DNA from: a virus
Lineage: Duplodnaviria; Heunggongvirae; Uroviricota; Caudoviricetes
Strand: one strand, 5' to 3'
DNA: 5,867 bases
Virus record (IMG/VR): IMGVR_UViG_2744054675_000002
Position numbers and translations under genes: made by a program. A model generated the notes under the pieces. It was not told where the DNA came from and did no database searches. It saw only the letters and a program-made list of their open reading frames with translations. Shown piece after piece: positions 597 to 5,867 of the stretch. Each line of letters opens with the position of its first letter. The first letter of the stretch is position 1.

Positions 597-620
597 TAAA
601 AAAACCCAGCCGAAGCTGGG
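597..620 (-). terminator. Rho-independent terminator between ant and the tailspike gene
   Basis: On the minus strand: CCCAGC-UUCG-GCUGGG (plus coords 605..620) followed directly by a U7 tract (plus-strand A-run 598..604). This is a GC-rich 6-bp stem with a UUCG tetraloop. The position matches the known terminator after ant in P22, which late transcription reads through to express the tailspike. Confidence 0.8.
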
Positions 621-639
621 TCGTTGCGTTGGTTATCTG

Positions 640-1542
640 TCAGTAGTTATGTACTGAAGGAGGTAATTCTTTATTCTTAAGTCTCATCCATGCGGAAAGA
701 TTCGTTGGTCCGTCTGGCTCATTGATATCAACATCTCGTGTGTGATTGATTAAAACGTCTCTCGCCATTCCGATAACATACGAGAACTCATGACCATAGT
801 CGTAGCATCTGCCGGAATAGTTCGATTGAATTTGTTTCAGCGCCGGATACAGTTCGCGGAATAATGCCTGTGAGCGGTTGGCATAATCCCATAACCATAC
901 AAGGCTGTTTACTTCTTTTGCAGAAAGCTCGTTGGTTTTCTTCTCTTGTTTGCTAATGAACTCACCTTCAAGCACTACCCTGTGGATGTACTCTACTGCT
1001 TGCGGTATCTGAGATGCATCAAGCTCTTCAATACTTTCCACATTGAAACGCTGATGAATCATTGCATAAGCTTCTGGGTACATTAGATGCTTTTTGCTGA
1101 CCAGCATATTTACAGCATCACGAAGCGGAGTCCTGTCATCAACAGATGTTTTCTTACGTGCATTTTCTGCCTTTCCCTTTGTCCAGTAGTCATGCAGCAC
1201 GGTAAAGCATTCTTCCTGGTACTGAATCAGTTTATCGCGGATGTCAGCACGAACTTTCTCAGGGTTGATGCTGAACAGCCATCCATTTAACTTCTTCAAA
1301 GGAAGGCAGAGTAGCTTACGAAGTTTCCCATCAGCGGCAACCATATTCATATGAATACAGTTGAACTTATCTAGTTGTTTCATAAGTTTTTGTTGCTGAG
1401 TACCCCAGCTCATTCCGAGGTTTTCAACGATTGGCTTCATCGCAACATATGCAACTCCGGCAGCCATGGCGGTGATAATCTGCTGACCATTGAAAGGTAC
1501 GTAAGAGGTGTTCACTGCTTCTAAAATTGCTATACTATTCAT
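640..1542 (-). CDS. ant: Antirepressor Ant (P22 immI-type), 300 aa
   Basis: ORF 640..1608 on the minus strand, but the codon at 1608 is TTG. The first ATG is at 1542..1540 ([21 protein letters not shown]...), with GGAG about 10 nt upstream, giving 300 aa. Size, position directly downstream of an Arc-like gene, and orientation toward the tailspike all match P22 ant. Confidence 0.85.
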
Positions 1543-1614
1543 GTTGGTTTTTCTCCACGGATTTACCGACAACCGAAGCCCTGACTGTTCCAGCAGTTGG
1601 GGCTTCAACTTTTT
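1543..1614 (+). ncRNA. sar: Candidate sar-like small antisense RNA, complementary to the ant RBS/start and the arc-ant intercistronic region
   Basis: Plus strand: extended -10 motif TGcTATACT at 1528..1536, inside the ant 5' coding region, which predicts a start near 1543. A hairpin follows at 1575..1606 (GAAGCCC / GGGCTTC core, extendable with G-U pairs, 6-nt loop), then AACTTTTTG at 1607..1615. The predicted transcript of about 70 nt matches the size and position of the P22 sar RNA. Ends are approximate. Confidence 0.5.
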
Positions 1615-1778
1615 GCTATATTACCTTTAGAACTATCCCGCCTTAAACTATCCACTAACCGCATTACCATCTCGGTATTTATTGAGCGACCATTTTCTTT
1701 CGCTGACTTCTCGATTGCTAACTTAACCTCTAATGGGATGCGCAAAGGGTACTTTGGTGCGTCTGACTTGACTATCAT
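1605..1778 (-). CDS. arc: Arc-family ribbon-helix-helix repressor, 57 aa
   Basis: Minus-strand ORF. The ATG at 1778..1776 is preceded by GGAGGT (revcomp of 1782..1787). Protein [57 protein letters not shown] has the N-terminal beta-strand plus helix pattern of P22 Arc (compare PQFNLRWPREV...ENGRSVNSEIY). The track ORF 1605..1793 begins at a TTG and is taken as an over-extension. Confidence 0.85.
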
Positions 1779-1866
1779 ATTACCTCCAATCAATTTGGTA
1801 TAACCGTTATACCATTGTGATCGCAGTGATGCAATAGTAATATCACCAAAATGCTATGGAGGTGGT
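1779..1866. promoter_or_regulatory. Divergent immI control region (Pant leftward, Pmnt rightward) with operators
   Basis: An 88-bp gap between divergent arc and mnt start codons. Candidate Pmnt on plus: -35 TTGTGA 1815..1820, 17-bp spacer, -10 TAATAT 1838..1843. Candidate Pant on minus: -35 TTGCAT (revcomp of 1829..1834), 17-bp spacer, -10 TATAAC (revcomp of 1806..1811). Promoter hexamers were assigned by eye and are tentative. Confidence 0.6.
1796..1814. promoter_or_regulatory. Perfect 19-bp palindromic operator TGGTATAAC-C-GTTATACCA (putative Mnt-type operator overlapping the Pant -10 and start)
   Basis: Nine-bp perfect inverted repeats around a central C, read directly from the sequence. 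It sits about 18 bp upstream of the arc start codon, overlapping the proposed Pant -10, analogous to O-mnt in P22. Confidence 0.6.
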
Positions 1867-2103
1867 ATGTCACGCGAAGAGCCGCAAATAAATATCAGGA
1901 TTTCCAAAGAGTTAAAGGCAAAGGTTAAAGCCAGGGCGCAACATAACAAGCGTTCCATGAATGCTGAAATAATACAGATTATCGAAGATGCTGTTTGTGG
2001 TAGATCGCTTAATAGCAATGAATTTGCTCAGAAAGAGGCTGACAAATTCAGGGATGCGCTGATTGAAACACTGAAAACCATGTATGGTAAGGATGCAAAA
2101 TGA
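1867..2103 (+). CDS. mnt: Mnt-family ribbon-helix-helix repressor, 78 aa
   Basis: ATG at 1867 with GGAGG at 1858..1862. Protein MSREEPQINIRISKELKAKVKARAQHNKRSMNAEIIQIIEDAV... matches the P22 Mnt N-terminal pattern (compare ...FNFRMPMEVREKLKFRAEANGRSMNSELLQIVQDAL). It is divergent from arc-ant, as in P22 immI. Confidence 0.85.
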   Translation: MSREEPQINIRISKELKAKVKARAQHNKRSMNAEIIQIIEDAVCGRSLNSNEFAQKEADKFRDALIETLKTMYGKDAK

Positions 2104-2309
2104 ATAAAAAACAGTTTATTAAGTCAAAAACATCAAGCAAGGAAGAGCTAGAGAAAGAGCTAAACTCCCTGAAATATGCTCTGTGTCTGGTTTACTCAAG
2201 ACTGCCAATGGAAGATAAAAACGCTATTTACAATGAAATGATTAGCAGCCTTGATTTTAACGATAGAGACCTAGCATCCCACCTCAACAGCTTCCGCGTC
2301 CCTGAGTAA
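2100..2309 (+). CDS. Hypothetical small protein (69 aa), translationally coupled to mnt
   Basis: The ATG at 2100 overlaps the mnt stop in an ATGA arrangement, with AAGGA 6 nt upstream. The protein is hydrophilic and probably helical, with no family I recognise. The region looks AT-rich by eye. Confidence 0.5.
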   Translation: MNKKQFIKSKTSSKEELEKELNSLKYALCLVYSRLPMEDKNAIYNEMISSLDFNDRDLASHLNSFRVPE

Positions 2310-2469
2310 TTCTGTTGCGGATTTGCTTCTTGCGGTGGTTTAGGCTGGAGAGCTTGGCTTCTGCTTCCGATATTTGCGCATCCAGATCTTTAAGTTCAAG
2401 ATCTGAAAGTCGCTGGTCAAGCAGGGTTTGATTCAACTCGATGTTGTTCAGGCGTTCTTCTATGGTCAT
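2284..2469 (-). CDS. Hypothetical coiled-coil-like small protein (61 aa)
   Basis: ATG at 2469..2467 with AAGGTAA upstream (revcomp of about 2476..2482). Codon choice looks coding-like (CTG, CGC, AAC, ATC). The protein has heptad-like hydrophobic spacing and a basic C-terminus. It lies in late-operon orientation and overlaps the 3' end of the 69-aa ORF by 26 bp, so it is uncertain. Confidence 0.35.
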   Translation of the reverse strand: MTIEERLNNIELNQTLLDQRLSDLELKDLDAQISEAEAKLSSLNHRKKQIRNRITQGRGSC

Positions 2470-2494: not shown

Positions 2495-2794
2495 GTGAAG
2501 CGATGGGTTATAGGTGCATTCTGTTTTCTAATTAGTGGTCTTGCACAATCGCAAGATAAGGATCTGAAATTTGCTAACGACATGTTAGTTACAGCTAAAG
2601 TTGCTGGTATGTGTGGAACATTTAAACAAATGTTTGCTTTTCAAGAAGCAACACAGATGCCCGGCGGAGATGAATTTATTGAACGTTTTTTGAATACGGA
2701 AATTTCTCGCCTAGGAATGTCACTTCAAGAGTTCATGAAGTTGTGCACAGATTCTATAGAGTCATACAATAAATTAAAAAGGATGTCAGAATAG
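2495..2794 (+). CDS. Hypothetical secreted/periplasmic small protein (99 aa) with N-terminal signal peptide
   Basis: GTG start at 2495 with GGGAG at 2484..2488 (6-nt spacer). The N-terminus MKRWVIGAFCFLISGLAQSQ has a basic n-region, hydrophobic core and a likely signal peptidase I site after GLA. There is no lipobox. The mature part of about 79 aa has two Cys. The gene is AT-rich. Confidence 0.6.
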   Translation: MKRWVIGAFCFLISGLAQSQDKDLKFANDMLVTAKVAGMCGTFKQMFAFQEATQMPGGDEFIERFLNTEISRLGMSLQEFMKLCTDSIESYNKLKRMSE

Positions 2795-2820: not shown

Positions 2821-2889
2821 ATGGTAACAGTCGGTTGGATTATTGTTGCCCTGCTTGTTGCTCTGTGGGCAAAGAATCGTTACTACTGA
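2821..2889 (+). CDS. Candidate 22-aa hydrophobic micro-protein ([22 protein letters not shown])
   Basis: ATG at 2821 preceded by GGGAGG at 2810..2815 (5-nt spacer), 26 nt after the 99-aa ORF stop. It encodes a single predicted transmembrane helix with a basic/aromatic tail. Caveat: 50 bp overlap the antisense of the Gln-rich 3' end of the gp16-like gene, which biases toward Leu/Val codons. Confidence 0.25.
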   Translation: MVTVGWIIVALLVALWAKNRYY

Positions 2890-5008
2890 GAAAAGCGATA
2901 ATACCAACGCGGGCTAGATTTTTCTTCTCGTCCGCTGATAGCGTATTTACCCAATCCCTATATGGTTTCACTTTCTGCATTGAAGCATCCACCGATTTCC
3001 TAGATGCTGGGGTGCTGGCGTGACCTGCGGCAATCCTTTTTGAGAGATTTTTAAAAGCCGGAGATGCTATTAATTCATCAGCGGCAGCCATTCTTGAATT
3101 TTTACCAGAACGGAGGAGGCTAAAGAGTACCCCTGCCGTACCGGCTCCAGGCGCTCCGATGGCTGTGGTTAGCCCTTCTGCTTTAGCCACGTCTTTTCCT
3201 ATTCCATATATACGCCCAAGCATTCCCTTCTCTCCTGCGAACTGATTCATCATCCGGTCAATTTGAGAGGAGGAATACACCTTCTCGCTGCCCACCCTTT
3301 GCATGCCAGAAGCCACCTCATAGATGTTTCTCAACCTACGCGTAGCCTGATAGCCAATTGCCCGGCTCAATGCCTGCATATTTGATTTGTTTCTTGATAG
3401 CCCTCCATACCACTTAACAAATCCAGGAACACCAAGTGACTGCCCGGGAGATTTAGCGAACGTAGTGAAAGCCCTATTCATTGCGGTGGCAACAGCTGGT
3501 TGCACCATGTCATCAGGAAGATTTGAAACTAGGCGACGGAAATCACCGCCCTTTCCTTGAGACATATCGACGATAGCTTGCTGTAATTGCGGCACTATTC
3601 CTTTATCCAAGTCTCTGCCAAGATTTTGAACAGCGGCTGCCTGCACTGCGAATCTCTTTCTCCCGATCTCTCTAGCTAAATTCCATGTATCCTCTGCACC
3701 ATATTTGGCAGCAGCGGCTCCCTGATCTTTTATCAGTGCGCTTTCAATAATTCCAAGGTGCCGAGCGTCGATGCCGCTATATGGCCCTTTATCCATCTCT
3801 TTGCCAAGAGCCCTTCCAACCTGCCGTCGAACTGCATCAAGAAGACCATAAGTCGGGGCGGTGTTTGGGTCTATTTGTTCCAAGGTCTTTGACAGTTGAG
3901 GATATAGCGATTTTAGTTTTTCCAGCCCACCGACATCATCTGCAATATCCTCAATGGCGTTAGTGGTATGGGTGGTATCTACGGTAGCTCTTGTTGGAAT
4001 TTTTGCTCTAATTTGATTGTATAGAGTGTCTTCTTGGCGCTTCAGGTTTGATCTTAACTCCTCATAAGAGCTTTTGACCTTTTGATTGATAAAGTCCTTA
4101 TCAACGCTCCCACCAAAATCATTAATAAATTTATCTGCCTGCTCTCCAAGCCTACTAATGGCCTCTCGCTGTGCGTGGAACAGTTTATTCCCTGGGGTTG
4201 CAGCTAAAGCATTTTCAAACGCGCGGTAAGAAGGGTTGCTGGAGTACATGCCGGGAGTTAAGGCATCCTCCATCCCAAGATTGCGGGCGGCCTGTAGCAC
4301 AGAATCATCTGGTGAAACAGCTTCCGCGAGAGCATTTAAACCAGATCTGTTTCCTGTTATTGGATTCACATCTGTAGCTTTCGTTGCAACCCTCGCCATT
4401 CCACTAAGTTCAGATGCCTGAGACATTTCTGCCGATGGAGGCCTAAACCTCTTCGTAACCGCACTGGCTGCTTTGCTAATCACTGGAGATGCCAATTCAG
4501 CAATTGGACCAGCGGCAGCACCTATAGCCGCCCCTGTAGTTACATTGCCACCGGTTCCGTTAGCAACAACACCACCTTCAACCGCACCAAGCCCTGCGGC
4601 GGCAGCCAGCCTTGCCGCCCCTTTCGGAACCTGAGAAATAATCCCACCACCACTAACAAATGGCGCTGCTTGTCCAACAAACTCACCAACATCTTGTGCG
4701 GTTGATGGTTTTGCCGCTAACTTCTGCTGTAGAGACTGAATTGCGGCTTGCTCTTCTGGTGTCATATCCTGAAACAGGCCAACACCTTTACCAACATCCA
4801 TCAATCCACTGAGAACGCCATACATAAAACGGTCGAAACCGTTAGCATTATTAACAACATTTTCCTGTCTGGAATTTTCCTCTGGTGAAACCAAAGGAGA
4901 TTGCTGCTGTTCTGGTTGGGAATCAAGCACAAAGCCATCAGGAAGTTGTGAGTTATCAGGCTGTTCATCCAGAACAAACCCCTCTGGTAAACCTACATTG
5001 GTTGCCAT
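2840..5008 (-). CDS. Ejection (DNA-transfer/injection) protein, P22 gp16-like, 722 aa
   Basis: Long minus-strand ORF with ATG at 5008 and AGGA about 7 nt upstream. It is the last late-operon gene before the immI region, which is the position of gene 16 in P22-like genomes. It has a Gly/Ala-rich segment and a hydrophobic stretch near the N-terminus. The family assignment comes from synteny and composition, not from a verified alignment. Confidence 0.7.
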
Positions 5009-5867
5009 TGTCCGTTCCTGTAAATAATTTTCTGACCAGTTTTAGGATTTTTCGCGGTCATACCTTCTCGAAATGTTTGACCGCCAGATGTTGCTTGTTG
5101 TGTCTGTTGTTGCGCAGGCTGCTGAATATCTTCATACAGCTTGGCTTTTCTGGATTGCAATTGCTTAGTTAGTCCGCTGGGGAGAGAATCTCCATAAGTT
5201 GAAAGATAATCATCCATTTGCTGATTAAACTTTTCGCCTTCAGTATTTGCCATCAGTTTTGAGGTGTTGATTAAGTCTTGGACTTGCTCATTATTCAGCA
5301 TCTTGCCGTTAGATAATTGGCTAACATAGTTACCAAGTGTGCCGAATATTCCATCAGTGCGTTTTACCTGCACTTGCTCACCTTCGCGTACCACAGATTG
5401 CGGATCCAGCGATTTCATATAGTTGAAAATCATTCCCAACTGTGCGGCTGGAGTGTTGCGCTTACCAAGGGCTTGTAGGTTGTCAGCAGCACTGCGCATT
5501 GCAGAATAATTCTTTGAGAACCCATTAATATCACTATTCAGATTTCGAACAAGTTTTGGGTCAATCTTTCCGCTTTCCTGTTGTTTCATCCCTAATTCCT
5601 GCAACTTCAGGGCTACGTTATCATTATGCATTTGTGCCCGCTGAGCCCTGTCTAGTTGAGCGTTTTGGATATTTGCCCATCCTCTCGCGTTCTCCATGTC
5701 AGCCTGACGGATGCTTTCATCCAATCGCCCTTTCTCAAGTTGGCGACCAACCATCTTATCCTGATAATCCAGCATTTTATCCGGACCAACAGCCCCTAGC
5801 GTCATAGTAGTCAGCATGTGTGATAGCTGCTCTGGATTCTGGATACCTGTCTGAATCATCCAGTCAG
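4993..5867 (-). CDS. Ejection protein, P22 gp20-like; 3' portion, N-terminus lies beyond the right window edge
   Basis: The minus-strand frame is open from the window edge (codons upstream of the ATG at 5859 remain open) to the TAG at 4995..4993. It overlaps the start of the gp16-like gene by 16 bp, which is typical late-operon packing. The product call is by synteny only. Confidence 0.6.

What the first reader, a model, noticed from the sequence alone, without database searches (positions are those of the whole stretch)
1528..1614. Candidate sar-like antisense RNA opposite the ant translation start
An extended -10 (TGcTATACT) inside the ant 5' coding region points away from ant, and about 70 nt downstream lies a strong hairpin plus T-tract on the same strand. 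A transcript between them would be fully complementary to the ant SD and start codon and to the arc-ant spacer, the arrangement of P22 sar, which represses ant translation. Position and length are conserved here although the protein sequences have diverged.
Basis: partly seen in the sequence, partly recalled or inferred. Interest (0 to 1): 0.5.

Follow-up and report, generated by a model that had tools for sequence, protein, structure and literature searches.

The report
Known P22-type sar antisense RNA

Summary
TGCTATACT lies at 1528-1536 (+), inside ant codons 3-5. A 14-bp hairpin at 1575-1606 is followed by AAC and TTTTT (1610-1614). Rfam's sar model (RF00262) matches 1543-1610 (+) end to end at 91.8 bits against a gathering score of 43 (E 2.8e-19). 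The segment differs from the annotated P22 sar at 4 of 70 positions and from the epsilon34 sar at 2 of 70. The Psar region is identical to epsilon34's.

The context is a complete immI region: tailspike head-binding domain, ant, sar, arc, a divergent mnt and ejection-protein genes. In other phages and viral contigs the same layout recurs next to many different ant genes. All 66 distinct sar sequences fold into the same two hairpins, with compensatory changes in both stems.

So this is the known sar gene, inferred by homology to block ant translation. Two corrections apply. By the P22 annotation the RNA starts at G1543, next to the ant AUG, so it covers the Shine-Dalgarno sequence but not the start codon. 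Ant is 86% identical to P22 Ant; only Arc (40%) and Mnt (35%) have diverged strongly. A side result: the window is a mosaic joined at the sar terminator. No expression data exist for this locus.

The parts
1508..1536 (+). Psar promoter region, placed by homology with the 29-nt feature annotated in P22. The -35 region is poor; the extended -10 is TGcTATACT at 1528-1536.
   Evidence: The P22 record annotates the sar promoter at the equivalent position. Over window 1508-1542 there is 1 mismatch to P22 and none to epsilon34. TGNTATACT occurs once in the window. TG precedes the -10 in 69 of 74 distinct sar loci.
1543..1612 (+). sar small antisense RNA. The predicted 5' end is G1543. The 3' end falls within the T-run, about 1610-1614, giving 68-72 nt.
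   Evidence: Rfam RF00262 matches 1543-1610 at 91.8 bits (gathering score 43), covering model positions 1-68 of 68. 66 of 70 positions match the annotated P22 sar and 68 of 70 the epsilon34 sar. The model built here scores 99.1 bits over 1543-1614.
1543..1570 (+). sar stem-loop I: GUUGGU pairs with ACCGAC, and the loop carries the anti-Shine-Dalgarno CUCC at 1553-1556.
   Evidence: Shown by the MFE fold and the Rfam consensus structure. In the structural alignment all six pairs change on both sides across relatives and 94.4% of cells are paired.
1575..1614 (+). sar stem-loop II, an intrinsic terminator: 14-bp stem at 1575-1606, AAC, then U5 at 1610-1614.
   Evidence: Found by the terminator scan and the fold. 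97.7% of cells are paired, with 3 compensatory pairs in the MAFFT alignment and 5 in the model-fitted one. P22 annotates the sar terminator at the equivalent position.
640..1542 (-). ant, the antirepressor gene (300 aa). Its leader 1543-1604 is the sar target; the Shine-Dalgarno GGAG is the complement of 1553-1556 and the ATG is at 1542-1540.
   Evidence: Pfam P22_AR_N (E 7e-45) plus P22_AR_C (E 6e-30). 86% identical to P22 Ant. The leader sequence is printed.
1605..1778 (-). arc-like repressor gene (57 aa from the ATG at 1778). Its last codons and TGA stop (1607-1605) overlap the 3' end of sar.
   Evidence: Pfam Arc, E 2e-12. 40% identical to P22 Arc. ORF table. A GGAGG Shine-Dalgarno sequence is the complement of 1783-1787.
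1867..2103 (+). mnt-like repressor gene (78 aa), divergent from arc.
   Evidence: Pfam Arc-like domain, E 6e-13. 35% identical to P22 Mnt.
1784..1826 (.). Inverted repeat between arc and mnt, with a perfect 9-1-9 core TGGTATAAC-C-GTTATACCA at 1796-1814. This is a candidate operator in the Pant/Pmnt region, which controls ant upstream of sar.
   Evidence: the repeat finder pair I1. Its position corresponds to the operators annotated between arc and mnt in P22. Its function is inferred only.
603..622 (-). Intrinsic terminator downstream of ant.
   Evidence: Terminator scan. It corresponds to the ant terminator annotated in P22 and epsilon34.

Best explanation
The segment 1528-1614 (+) is the sar gene of a P22-like (Lederbergvirus-type) phage or prophage immI region. 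An extended -10 promoter, Psar, embedded in ant codons 3-5 fires away from ant. It starts at G1543 and stops at the intrinsic terminator 1575-1614, giving an untranslated RNA of about 70 nt with two stem-loops. The RNA is perfectly complementary to the arc-ant spacer of the arc-ant mRNA, including the ant Shine-Dalgarno sequence. That sequence faces the apical part of stem-loop I. Pairing occludes the ribosome-binding site and blocks Ant synthesis after transcription. This would cover transcripts that escape Arc/Mnt repression of Pant and late-operon read-through transcripts. What is shown here: sequence and structure membership, position, context, and conservation with covariation. What is inferred by homology with P22: transcription of the RNA, its exact ends, and translational repression of ant.
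For: Rfam sar (RF00262) matches full length at 91.8 bits against a gathering score of 43, E 2.8e-19. There are 4 of 70 mismatches to the annotated P22 sar, 2 of 70 to the epsilon34 sar, and 0 of 35 to epsilon34 across Psar. Two hairpins form at -32.4 kcal/mol, z -6.3. The terminator is detected. The immI context is complete: Ant, Arc, Mnt, tailspike head-binding domain and an injectosome protein. Rfam sar scores above gathering in 11 of 13 other phage loci and below it in a twelfth (SEN22, 32.4 bits), including phages with unrelated ant genes. Of 129 usable viral-contig and phage matches to the hairpin-II base, 110 have a TAnnnT hexamer 3-4 nt before a CAT that lies 24-39 nt upstream of the hairpin. 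TG precedes the hexamer in 69 of 74 distinct versions. All 66 distinct sar bodies fold into two hairpins, and in 65 of them stem I starts at +1. In the structural alignment helix I is 94.4% paired with all 6 pairs changed on both sides, and helix II is 97.7% paired with 5 such pairs; 0 of 500 shuffles and no slid register reach this. The -10 motif persists where the Ant N-terminus differs (MNSIAI, MKSIAK, MNIVAK, MSSLAK) and even in another codon phase (MHDHST). So it is kept as a promoter, not only as codons. Literature: sar binds the ant ribosome-binding site and inhibits Ant production post-transcriptionally (PMC10732415). sar is annotated in epsilon34 and forms part of the immI 'ant moron' (PMC2629481). 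sar was detected by RNA-seq in P22 infection (PMC13397905).
Against: There are no transcript data for this window. The -35 region is poor and the consensus promoter scan does not call Psar. The alignment behind the helix I covariation was fitted to the model structure, which biases it toward pairing. The unguided MAFFT alignment shows only 51.5% pairing in helix I because of register shifts. The relatives were collected with a pattern that fixes the base of hairpin II, so its invariance there is partly by construction. The arc/mnt partner module differs from P22's, so the regulatory balance could differ. The primary P22 papers could not be read. Details such as the 68-69 nt size rest on record annotations and on my memory.
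Confidence: 0.93

Rival explanations
1. The element is a sequence relic. It is homologous to sar but no longer expressed or no longer regulatory in this mosaic, where an epsilon34-type ant and sar are joined to a Kapi1-type arc-mnt module.
For: The window is a recombinant whose junction lies at the end of the sar terminator. No expression data exist. From memory, P22 Psar activity depends on convergent Pant transcription, and Pant here belongs to a different module.
Against: The promoter region is identical to epsilon34's, and both hairpins are intact or stronger than in P22. G4-C25 replaces a G-U pair, and U5 replaces U3 in the tail. ant, arc and mnt are all intact ORFs. The same combination occurs in another viral contig, L126, and in E. 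coli prophages at about 97% identity.
Confidence: 0.04
2. The conservation reflects other constraints only, with no functional antisense RNA. These would be Ant N-terminal codons for the '-10', plus a hairpin kept as a recombination linker or as an element of the arc-ant mRNA (stability, processing or attenuation).
For: The -10 lies inside coding sequence. The sar segment is an island of homology between unrelated flanks, and the CUS-3 record labels it a 'boundary sequence'. The complement of hairpin II also folds in the ant leader.
Against: TG-N-TAnnnT is kept with different peptides and in a different codon phase. Its distance to the CAT and to the hairpin is fixed. A T-run follows the hairpin on the plus strand only, and the minus strand gives no terminator call there. 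Stem I, which is not part of the shared linker, keeps pairing through compensatory changes. The ant leader fold is not significant, z -1.7. In P22 the RNA and its repression of ant are experimentally established (cited).
Confidence: 0.02
3. The match is a chance co-occurrence of a -10-like nonamer and a terminator-like hairpin.
For: A single TGNTATACT occurs in 27 of 200 shuffles. The count of terminator-like hits in the region is not above shuffles.
Against: Rfam E-value 2.8e-19. Near identity to annotated sar genes. Recurrence in more than 100 loci.
Confidence: 0.005

Closest known systems
sar RNA of Salmonella phage P22 (Rfam RF00262; BK000583 misc_RNA 15021..15090)
   Same: Same position, starting at the base next to the ant ATG and ending at the arc stop. 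Same Psar -10 (TGCTATACT). Same two-hairpin structure. 66 of 70 bases identical. Same immI context.
   Different: Four substitutions: two in the unpaired interior or loop of stem-loop I and of hairpin II, one turning a G-U pair in stem I into G-C, and one more in the hairpin II loop. The tail is U5 rather than U3. The neighbouring arc and mnt genes are only 40% and 35% identical to P22's, so the RNA's 3' end overlaps a different arc C-terminus.
sar of Salmonella phage epsilon34 (EU570103, gp72) and Escherichia phage N7
   Same: These are the closest annotated relatives. 68 of 70 bases of sar are identical and Psar is identical. ant plus sar are about 94% identical at the DNA level up to window position 1612.
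   Different: Homology stops at 1612/1613. Beyond that the window carries the Kapi1-type arc-mnt module.
sar variants next to unrelated ant genes (Kapi1, CUS-3, PhiR12_4, EC.P3, S135, ES2)
   Same: Same layout and nearly the same terminator hairpin. Rfam sar scores 48-85 bits.
   Different: Stem-loop I and the ant gene are different sequences, with compensated pairing.
Other phage antisense or small RNAs that control antirepressors: the c4 RNA of P1/P7 and the CA RNA of N15
   Same: They work alike: a small RNA prevents antirepressor synthesis in a secondary immunity system. N15 CA is cited in PMC10732415; c4 is from my own knowledge.
   Different: They are not homologous. These RNAs are processed from longer transcripts encoded upstream of their targets, not cis-antisense transcripts from a promoter inside ant. 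No Rfam match to them was found here.
ctRNA_pGA1 (RF00236), a plasmid countertranscript
   Same: Both are small antisense RNAs ending in a long terminator hairpin. There is a sub-threshold hit at 1546-1619.
   Different: 28.9 bits against a gathering score of 45. This is a resemblance in shape only, and the element is not a member.

Membership tests
sar RNA (Rfam RF00262) | Sequence and secondary structure match the family covariance model at or above the gathering score | tested here: met
   91.8 bits against 43, E 2.8e-19, model positions 1-68 of 68, window 1543-1610 +
sar RNA (Rfam RF00262) | Two stem-loops, the second being a rho-independent terminator | tested here: met
   The MFE and centroid structures are identical, at -32.4 kcal/mol, z -6.3. 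The terminator scan hits 1575-1606 followed by AACTTTTTGC.
sar RNA (Rfam RF00262) | Encoded antisense to the arc-ant intercistronic region, covering the ant ribosome-binding site, with its 5' end next to the ant start codon | tested here: met
   ant ATG at 1542-1540 (-), sar +1 at 1543, anti-SD CUCC at 1553-1556, arc stop at 1607-1605. This is the same geometry as in the P22 and epsilon34 records.
sar RNA (Rfam RF00262) | Psar promoter inside the first codons of ant, reading away from ant | tested here: met
   TGCTATACT at 1528-1536. Identical to P22 and epsilon34 over the -10 and spacer. Conserved in 69 of 74 distinct relatives with TG and independent of the Ant peptide.
sar RNA (Rfam RF00262) | Lies in an immI module (ant, arc, mnt) between the ejection-protein genes and the tailspike gene of a P22-like late operon | tested here: met
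   Pfam P22_AR_N/C, Arc (twice), Inj_translocase and Head_binding. Synteny with P22, epsilon34 and Kapi1.
sar RNA (Rfam RF00262) | Transcribed as an RNA of about 68-69 nt | not testable with these tools
   No transcript data exist for this window. In P22 the RNA is annotated and seen by RNA-seq (PMC13397905).
sar RNA (Rfam RF00262) | Represses ant translation by pairing with ant mRNA, acting in trans | not testable with these tools
   Complementarity is perfect by construction. Repression is known for P22 only (PMC10732415; primary papers pmid 2445626, 2445627 and 9042942 could not be read).
ctRNA_pGA1 (RF00236) | Match at or above the gathering score | tested here: not met
   28.9 bits against 45

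The most novel reading that the evidence does not exclude
The roughly 40-bp sar terminator hairpin (window 1572-1612) may act as a constant 'linker' at which ant modules (ant plus sar stem-loop I) and arc/mnt modules are reassorted by homologous recombination among P22-like and other temperate enterobacterial phages. The window would be one such recombinant, an epsilon34-type ant and sar joined to a Kapi1-type arc-mnt. A corollary is that co-resident phages share hairpin II but not stem-loop I, so their sar RNAs could partly pair with each other's ant leaders. The evidence is 20 ant-side by 34 arc-side sequence clusters in 49 combinations around one hairpin, homology breakpoints at 1572 and at 1612/1613, and an island of homology. 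The idea of boundary sequences in lambdoid phages is itself old; the CUS-3 record already labels this stretch 'bsq2'.
Probability: 0.4. Interest if true: 0.25.

Novelty: already known. Interest (0 to 1): 0.08.

Why it matters
It matters little beyond annotation. sar was described in P22 in 1987, has an Rfam family, and is annotated in P22 and epsilon34. The practical value is threefold. (1) The gene is routinely missed: the E. coli RefSeq records and most phage records that matched this region list no sar feature. (2) Missing it leads to wrong ant start codons, as in Kapi1 and in the 322-aa TTG ORF of this window. (3) The comparative data show the family reaches far more ant types, and phage types outside the P22-like group, than the records annotate. 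Its terminator hairpin also marks a mosaic junction.

Tried and rejected
(1) The sigma-70 consensus scan did not report Psar, because it requires at least 4 of 6 matches in the -35 hexamer. I did not count this against the promoter, since the element is an extended -10 type that is identical to the annotated Psar.

(2) The unguided MAFFT alignment of 34 relatives put stem I out of register (51.5% paired), and RNAalifold recovered only hairpin II. I replaced it with alignment-free folding and a covariance-model alignment. The latter is biased toward its own structure.

(3) The primary P22 papers (PMC1369469 and doi 10.1101/gad.1.2.197) are not held. A search for 'Psar/Pant' returned mostly irrelevant papers. 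A search for a paper on the CUS-3 'boundary sequence' found none.

(4) The sub-threshold Rfam hits to ctRNA_pGA1 and snoR113 were rejected as chance or shape-only matches.

(5) I considered whether the hairpin terminates Pant transcripts. No T-run follows it on the minus strand and there is no terminator call there, and the ant leader fold is not significant, so I rejected this.

(6) The RNA-seq interval for P22 sar (104 nt) in PMC13397905 includes the complement of the AUG. It is a read-coverage interval, not a mapped 5' end, and it begins 1 nt after the -10 hexamer, so I did not use it to move the start site.

(7) PMC12111858 states that sar inhibits arc translation. This conflicts with the other sources and with the geometry, and I did not adopt it.

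Full report
WHAT IS IN THE WINDOW. The 5867-bp window is the immunity I ('ant moron') region of a P22-like phage or prophage, read in reverse. On the minus strand, from right to left, lie two ejection-protein genes: 4993-5859, which matches Pfam Inj_translocase, and 2840-5008. They are followed by arc (1605-1778, Pfam Arc), ant (640-1542, Pfam P22_AR_N plus P22_AR_C) and the head-binding domain of a tailspike (3-539). On the plus strand, divergent from arc, is an mnt-like gene (1867-2103, Arc-like domain). The closest annotated relatives are Escherichia phage Kapi1 for most of the window and Salmonella phage epsilon34 for ant. Similar prophages occur in many E. coli genomes, but none of them covers 80% of the window.

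THE OBSERVATION. TGCTATACT lies at 1528-1536 on the plus strand. It is the only such nonamer in the window, where 0.14 are expected. It sits inside ant codons 3-5, since the ant ATG is the CAT at 1540-1542. A 14-bp stem at 1575-1606 is followed by AAC and five T's at 1610-1614. The RNA 1543-1614 folds into two hairpins at -32.4 kcal/mol, z = -6.3 against shuffles.

WHAT IT IS. Rfam's sar family (RF00262) matches 1543-1610 (+) over its full length at 91.8 bits. The gathering score is 43 and the E-value 2.8e-19. The curated P22 record BK000583 annotates a sar promoter, a 70-nt sar RNA and a sar terminator at exactly the corresponding positions, and epsilon34 does likewise. Over the 70 nt the window differs from P22 at four positions and from epsilon34 at two. 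The 35 nt containing Psar are identical to epsilon34 and differ once from P22. One substitution turns a G-U pair of stem I into G-C. The others fall in the hairpin II loop or in the unpaired interior of stem-loop I. The tail has U5 where P22 has U3. The element is therefore a member of the sar family, not merely sar-like.

Rfam sar was found above the gathering score in 11 of 13 other phage loci and below it in a twelfth, SEN22. These include phages whose ant genes are unrelated at the DNA level: Kapi1, CUS-3, PhiR12_4, EC.P3, S135 and ES2. A scan of viral contigs for the base of hairpin II gave 129 usable matches when pooled with the phage loci already fetched. In 110 of these, a TAnnnT hexamer lies 3-4 nt before a CAT that is 24-39 nt upstream of the hairpin. 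There are 74 distinct versions, and TG precedes the hexamer in 69 of them. The hexamer varies (TATACT, TACACT, TAAGCT, TATGAT, TACAAT and others), and so does the encoded Ant N-terminus (MNSIAI, MKSIAK, MNIVAK, MSSLAK). In the MHDHST group the motif sits in a different codon phase. The motif is therefore maintained as a promoter rather than as codons.

STRUCTURAL SUPPORT. All 66 distinct sar bodies fold by MFE into two hairpins, and in 65 of them stem I starts at the first transcribed base. The stem I sequences are very different, for example GUUGGU/ACCGAC, GUCAAUA/UGUUGAU, GUCGU/ACGAU and GACGUUGG/UCGACGUU. In a covariance-model alignment, helix I is 94.4% paired with changes on both sides at all six pairs. 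Helix II is 97.7% paired with five such pairs. No shuffle and no slid register reaches these values. Two caveats apply. That alignment is fitted to the structure, and the plain MAFFT alignment misregisters helix I. The base of hairpin II was also fixed by the search pattern.

HOW IT MOST LIKELY WORKS. Shown here: the RNA would be perfectly complementary to the arc-ant spacer. This includes the ant Shine-Dalgarno sequence (GGAG, complement of 1553-1556, 10 nt before the AUG), which faces the apical part of stem-loop I. It also includes the last codons and the stop codon of arc. Inferred from P22: Psar produces an RNA of about 70 nt that pairs with ant mRNA at the ribosome-binding site and blocks Ant synthesis post-transcriptionally, acting in trans (PMC10732415; PMC13397905; PMC2629481). 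The module sits inside the late operon, with the ejection genes upstream and the tailspike gene downstream on the same strand. sar would therefore also silence ant on read-through transcripts that Arc and Mnt cannot repress. This last point, together with the 68-69 nt size and the activation of Psar by Pant transcription, comes from my memory of Liao et al. 1987 and Wu et al. 1987 (pmid 2445626, 2445627). I could not read those papers.

(1) With the -10 at 1531-1536, and by the P22 annotation, the start is G1543, the base next to the AUG. The RNA covers the Shine-Dalgarno sequence and spacer but not the start codon. An RNA-seq coverage interval for P22 extends 6 nt further upstream, but it is not a mapped 5' end. 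(2) Ant is 86% identical to P22 Ant; only Arc (40%) and Mnt (35%) are strongly diverged. (3) The hairpin starts 39 nt after the -10, not 70 nt. The figure of about 70 nt is the length of the transcript.

RIVALS. Chance is excluded. Conservation through coding constraint or as a recombination linker only is contradicted by four results: the promoter motif is independent of codon phase, a T-run follows the hairpin on the plus strand only, stem I shows compensatory changes, and the P22 genetics are established. A terminator or attenuator role on the ant mRNA strand has no support. A silent relic cannot be excluded without transcript data. It is unlikely, because every element is intact or stronger than in P22.

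SIDE RESULT: A MOSAIC JUNCTION. Homology to epsilon34 and P22 ends at 1612/1613. Homology to Kapi1 begins at about 1572 and continues through arc and mnt. The 41 bp shared by all three are the terminator hairpin. Among 108 sar-bearing loci, 20 ant-side clusters and 34 arc-side clusters occur in 49 combinations. The window's own combination recurs once, in L126. In several phages the sar segment is the only stretch similar to the window, and the CUS-3 record labels it a 'boundary sequence'. This fits the known mosaicism of the ant moron (PMC2629481). It is not a new principle.

VERDICT. The finding is real and was correctly interpreted. It is already known: a sar gene in a P22-like immI region. 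Interest is low.

Noticed in passing
window 1767-1831 compared with L003 (Kapi1, MT813197): Kapi1 lacks these 65 bp. They hold arc codons 1-4, the arc Shine-Dalgarno sequence and the inverted repeat 1784-1826 (candidate Pant/Pmnt operator). That leaves only about 32 bp between the divergent arc and mnt genes. E. coli prophages such as NZ_CM160080 keep the window's version. Control of immI in Kapi1 may be altered.
   Followed up: partly
window 640-1608 (-); L003 638-1582: A 322-aa ORF from a TTG runs in frame through the whole sar region into arc. The Kapi1 record annotates its anti-repressor with such an upstream extension overlapping arc, although the conserved CAT next to sar lies about 66 nt downstream. 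This looks like a start-codon misannotation caused by not annotating sar.
   Followed up: partly
window 1572-1612: The sar terminator hairpin is the only block shared by the epsilon34-type (left) and Kapi1-type (right) halves of the window. Around it, 20 ant-side and 34 arc-side sequence clusters occur in 49 combinations among 108 loci. CUS-3 annotates the stretch as boundary sequence bsq2.
   Followed up: yes
L036 1630-1702 and 2574-2649 (minus strand of the locus): This viral contig has two sar-like elements about 0.95 kb apart. Each starts next to the CAT of a leftward gene and each has its own extended -10 (TGGTATACT and TGCTAAAAT). These appear to be tandem antirepressor-type genes, each with its own antisense RNA.
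   Followed up: partly
L010 1085-1215 (Erwinia phage Midgardsormr38): The layout is the same, TGCTATACT-GTT-CAT followed by a hairpin and a T-run in the 72-nt arc-ant spacer. Hairpin II has a different sequence, and neither Rfam sar nor my model detected it. The family probably extends beyond what RF00262 finds.
   Followed up: partly
L007 (PhiR12_4) and L006 (S135): sar-bearing ant modules also occur outside P22-like podoviruses. One lies between tail tip genes K and L of a 54-kb phage. Another lies next to tandem 'Rha protein' genes in a 50-kb Salmonella phage.
   Followed up: no
window 1784-1826: An inverted repeat with a perfect 9-1-9 core, TGGTATAAC-C-GTTATACCA (1796-1814), lies between arc and mnt. 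It is likely the operator for the Arc- or Mnt-like repressor of this immunity type.
   Followed up: no
window 2100-2309 (+), 2284-2469 (-), 2495-2794 (+): Three small ORFs between mnt and the ejection-protein gene have no Pfam match. Their Kapi1 counterparts are annotated as hypothetical, XhlA-like, and a signal-peptide protein.
   Followed up: no
PMC13397905 Table 2 and PMC12111858 Discussion: The P22 RNA-seq interval called P22J-sar is 104 nt. It is 6 nt longer at the 5' end and about 30 nt longer at the 3' end than the annotated sar. Another paper states that sar inhibits arc translation. Both differ from the record annotations.
   Followed up: no
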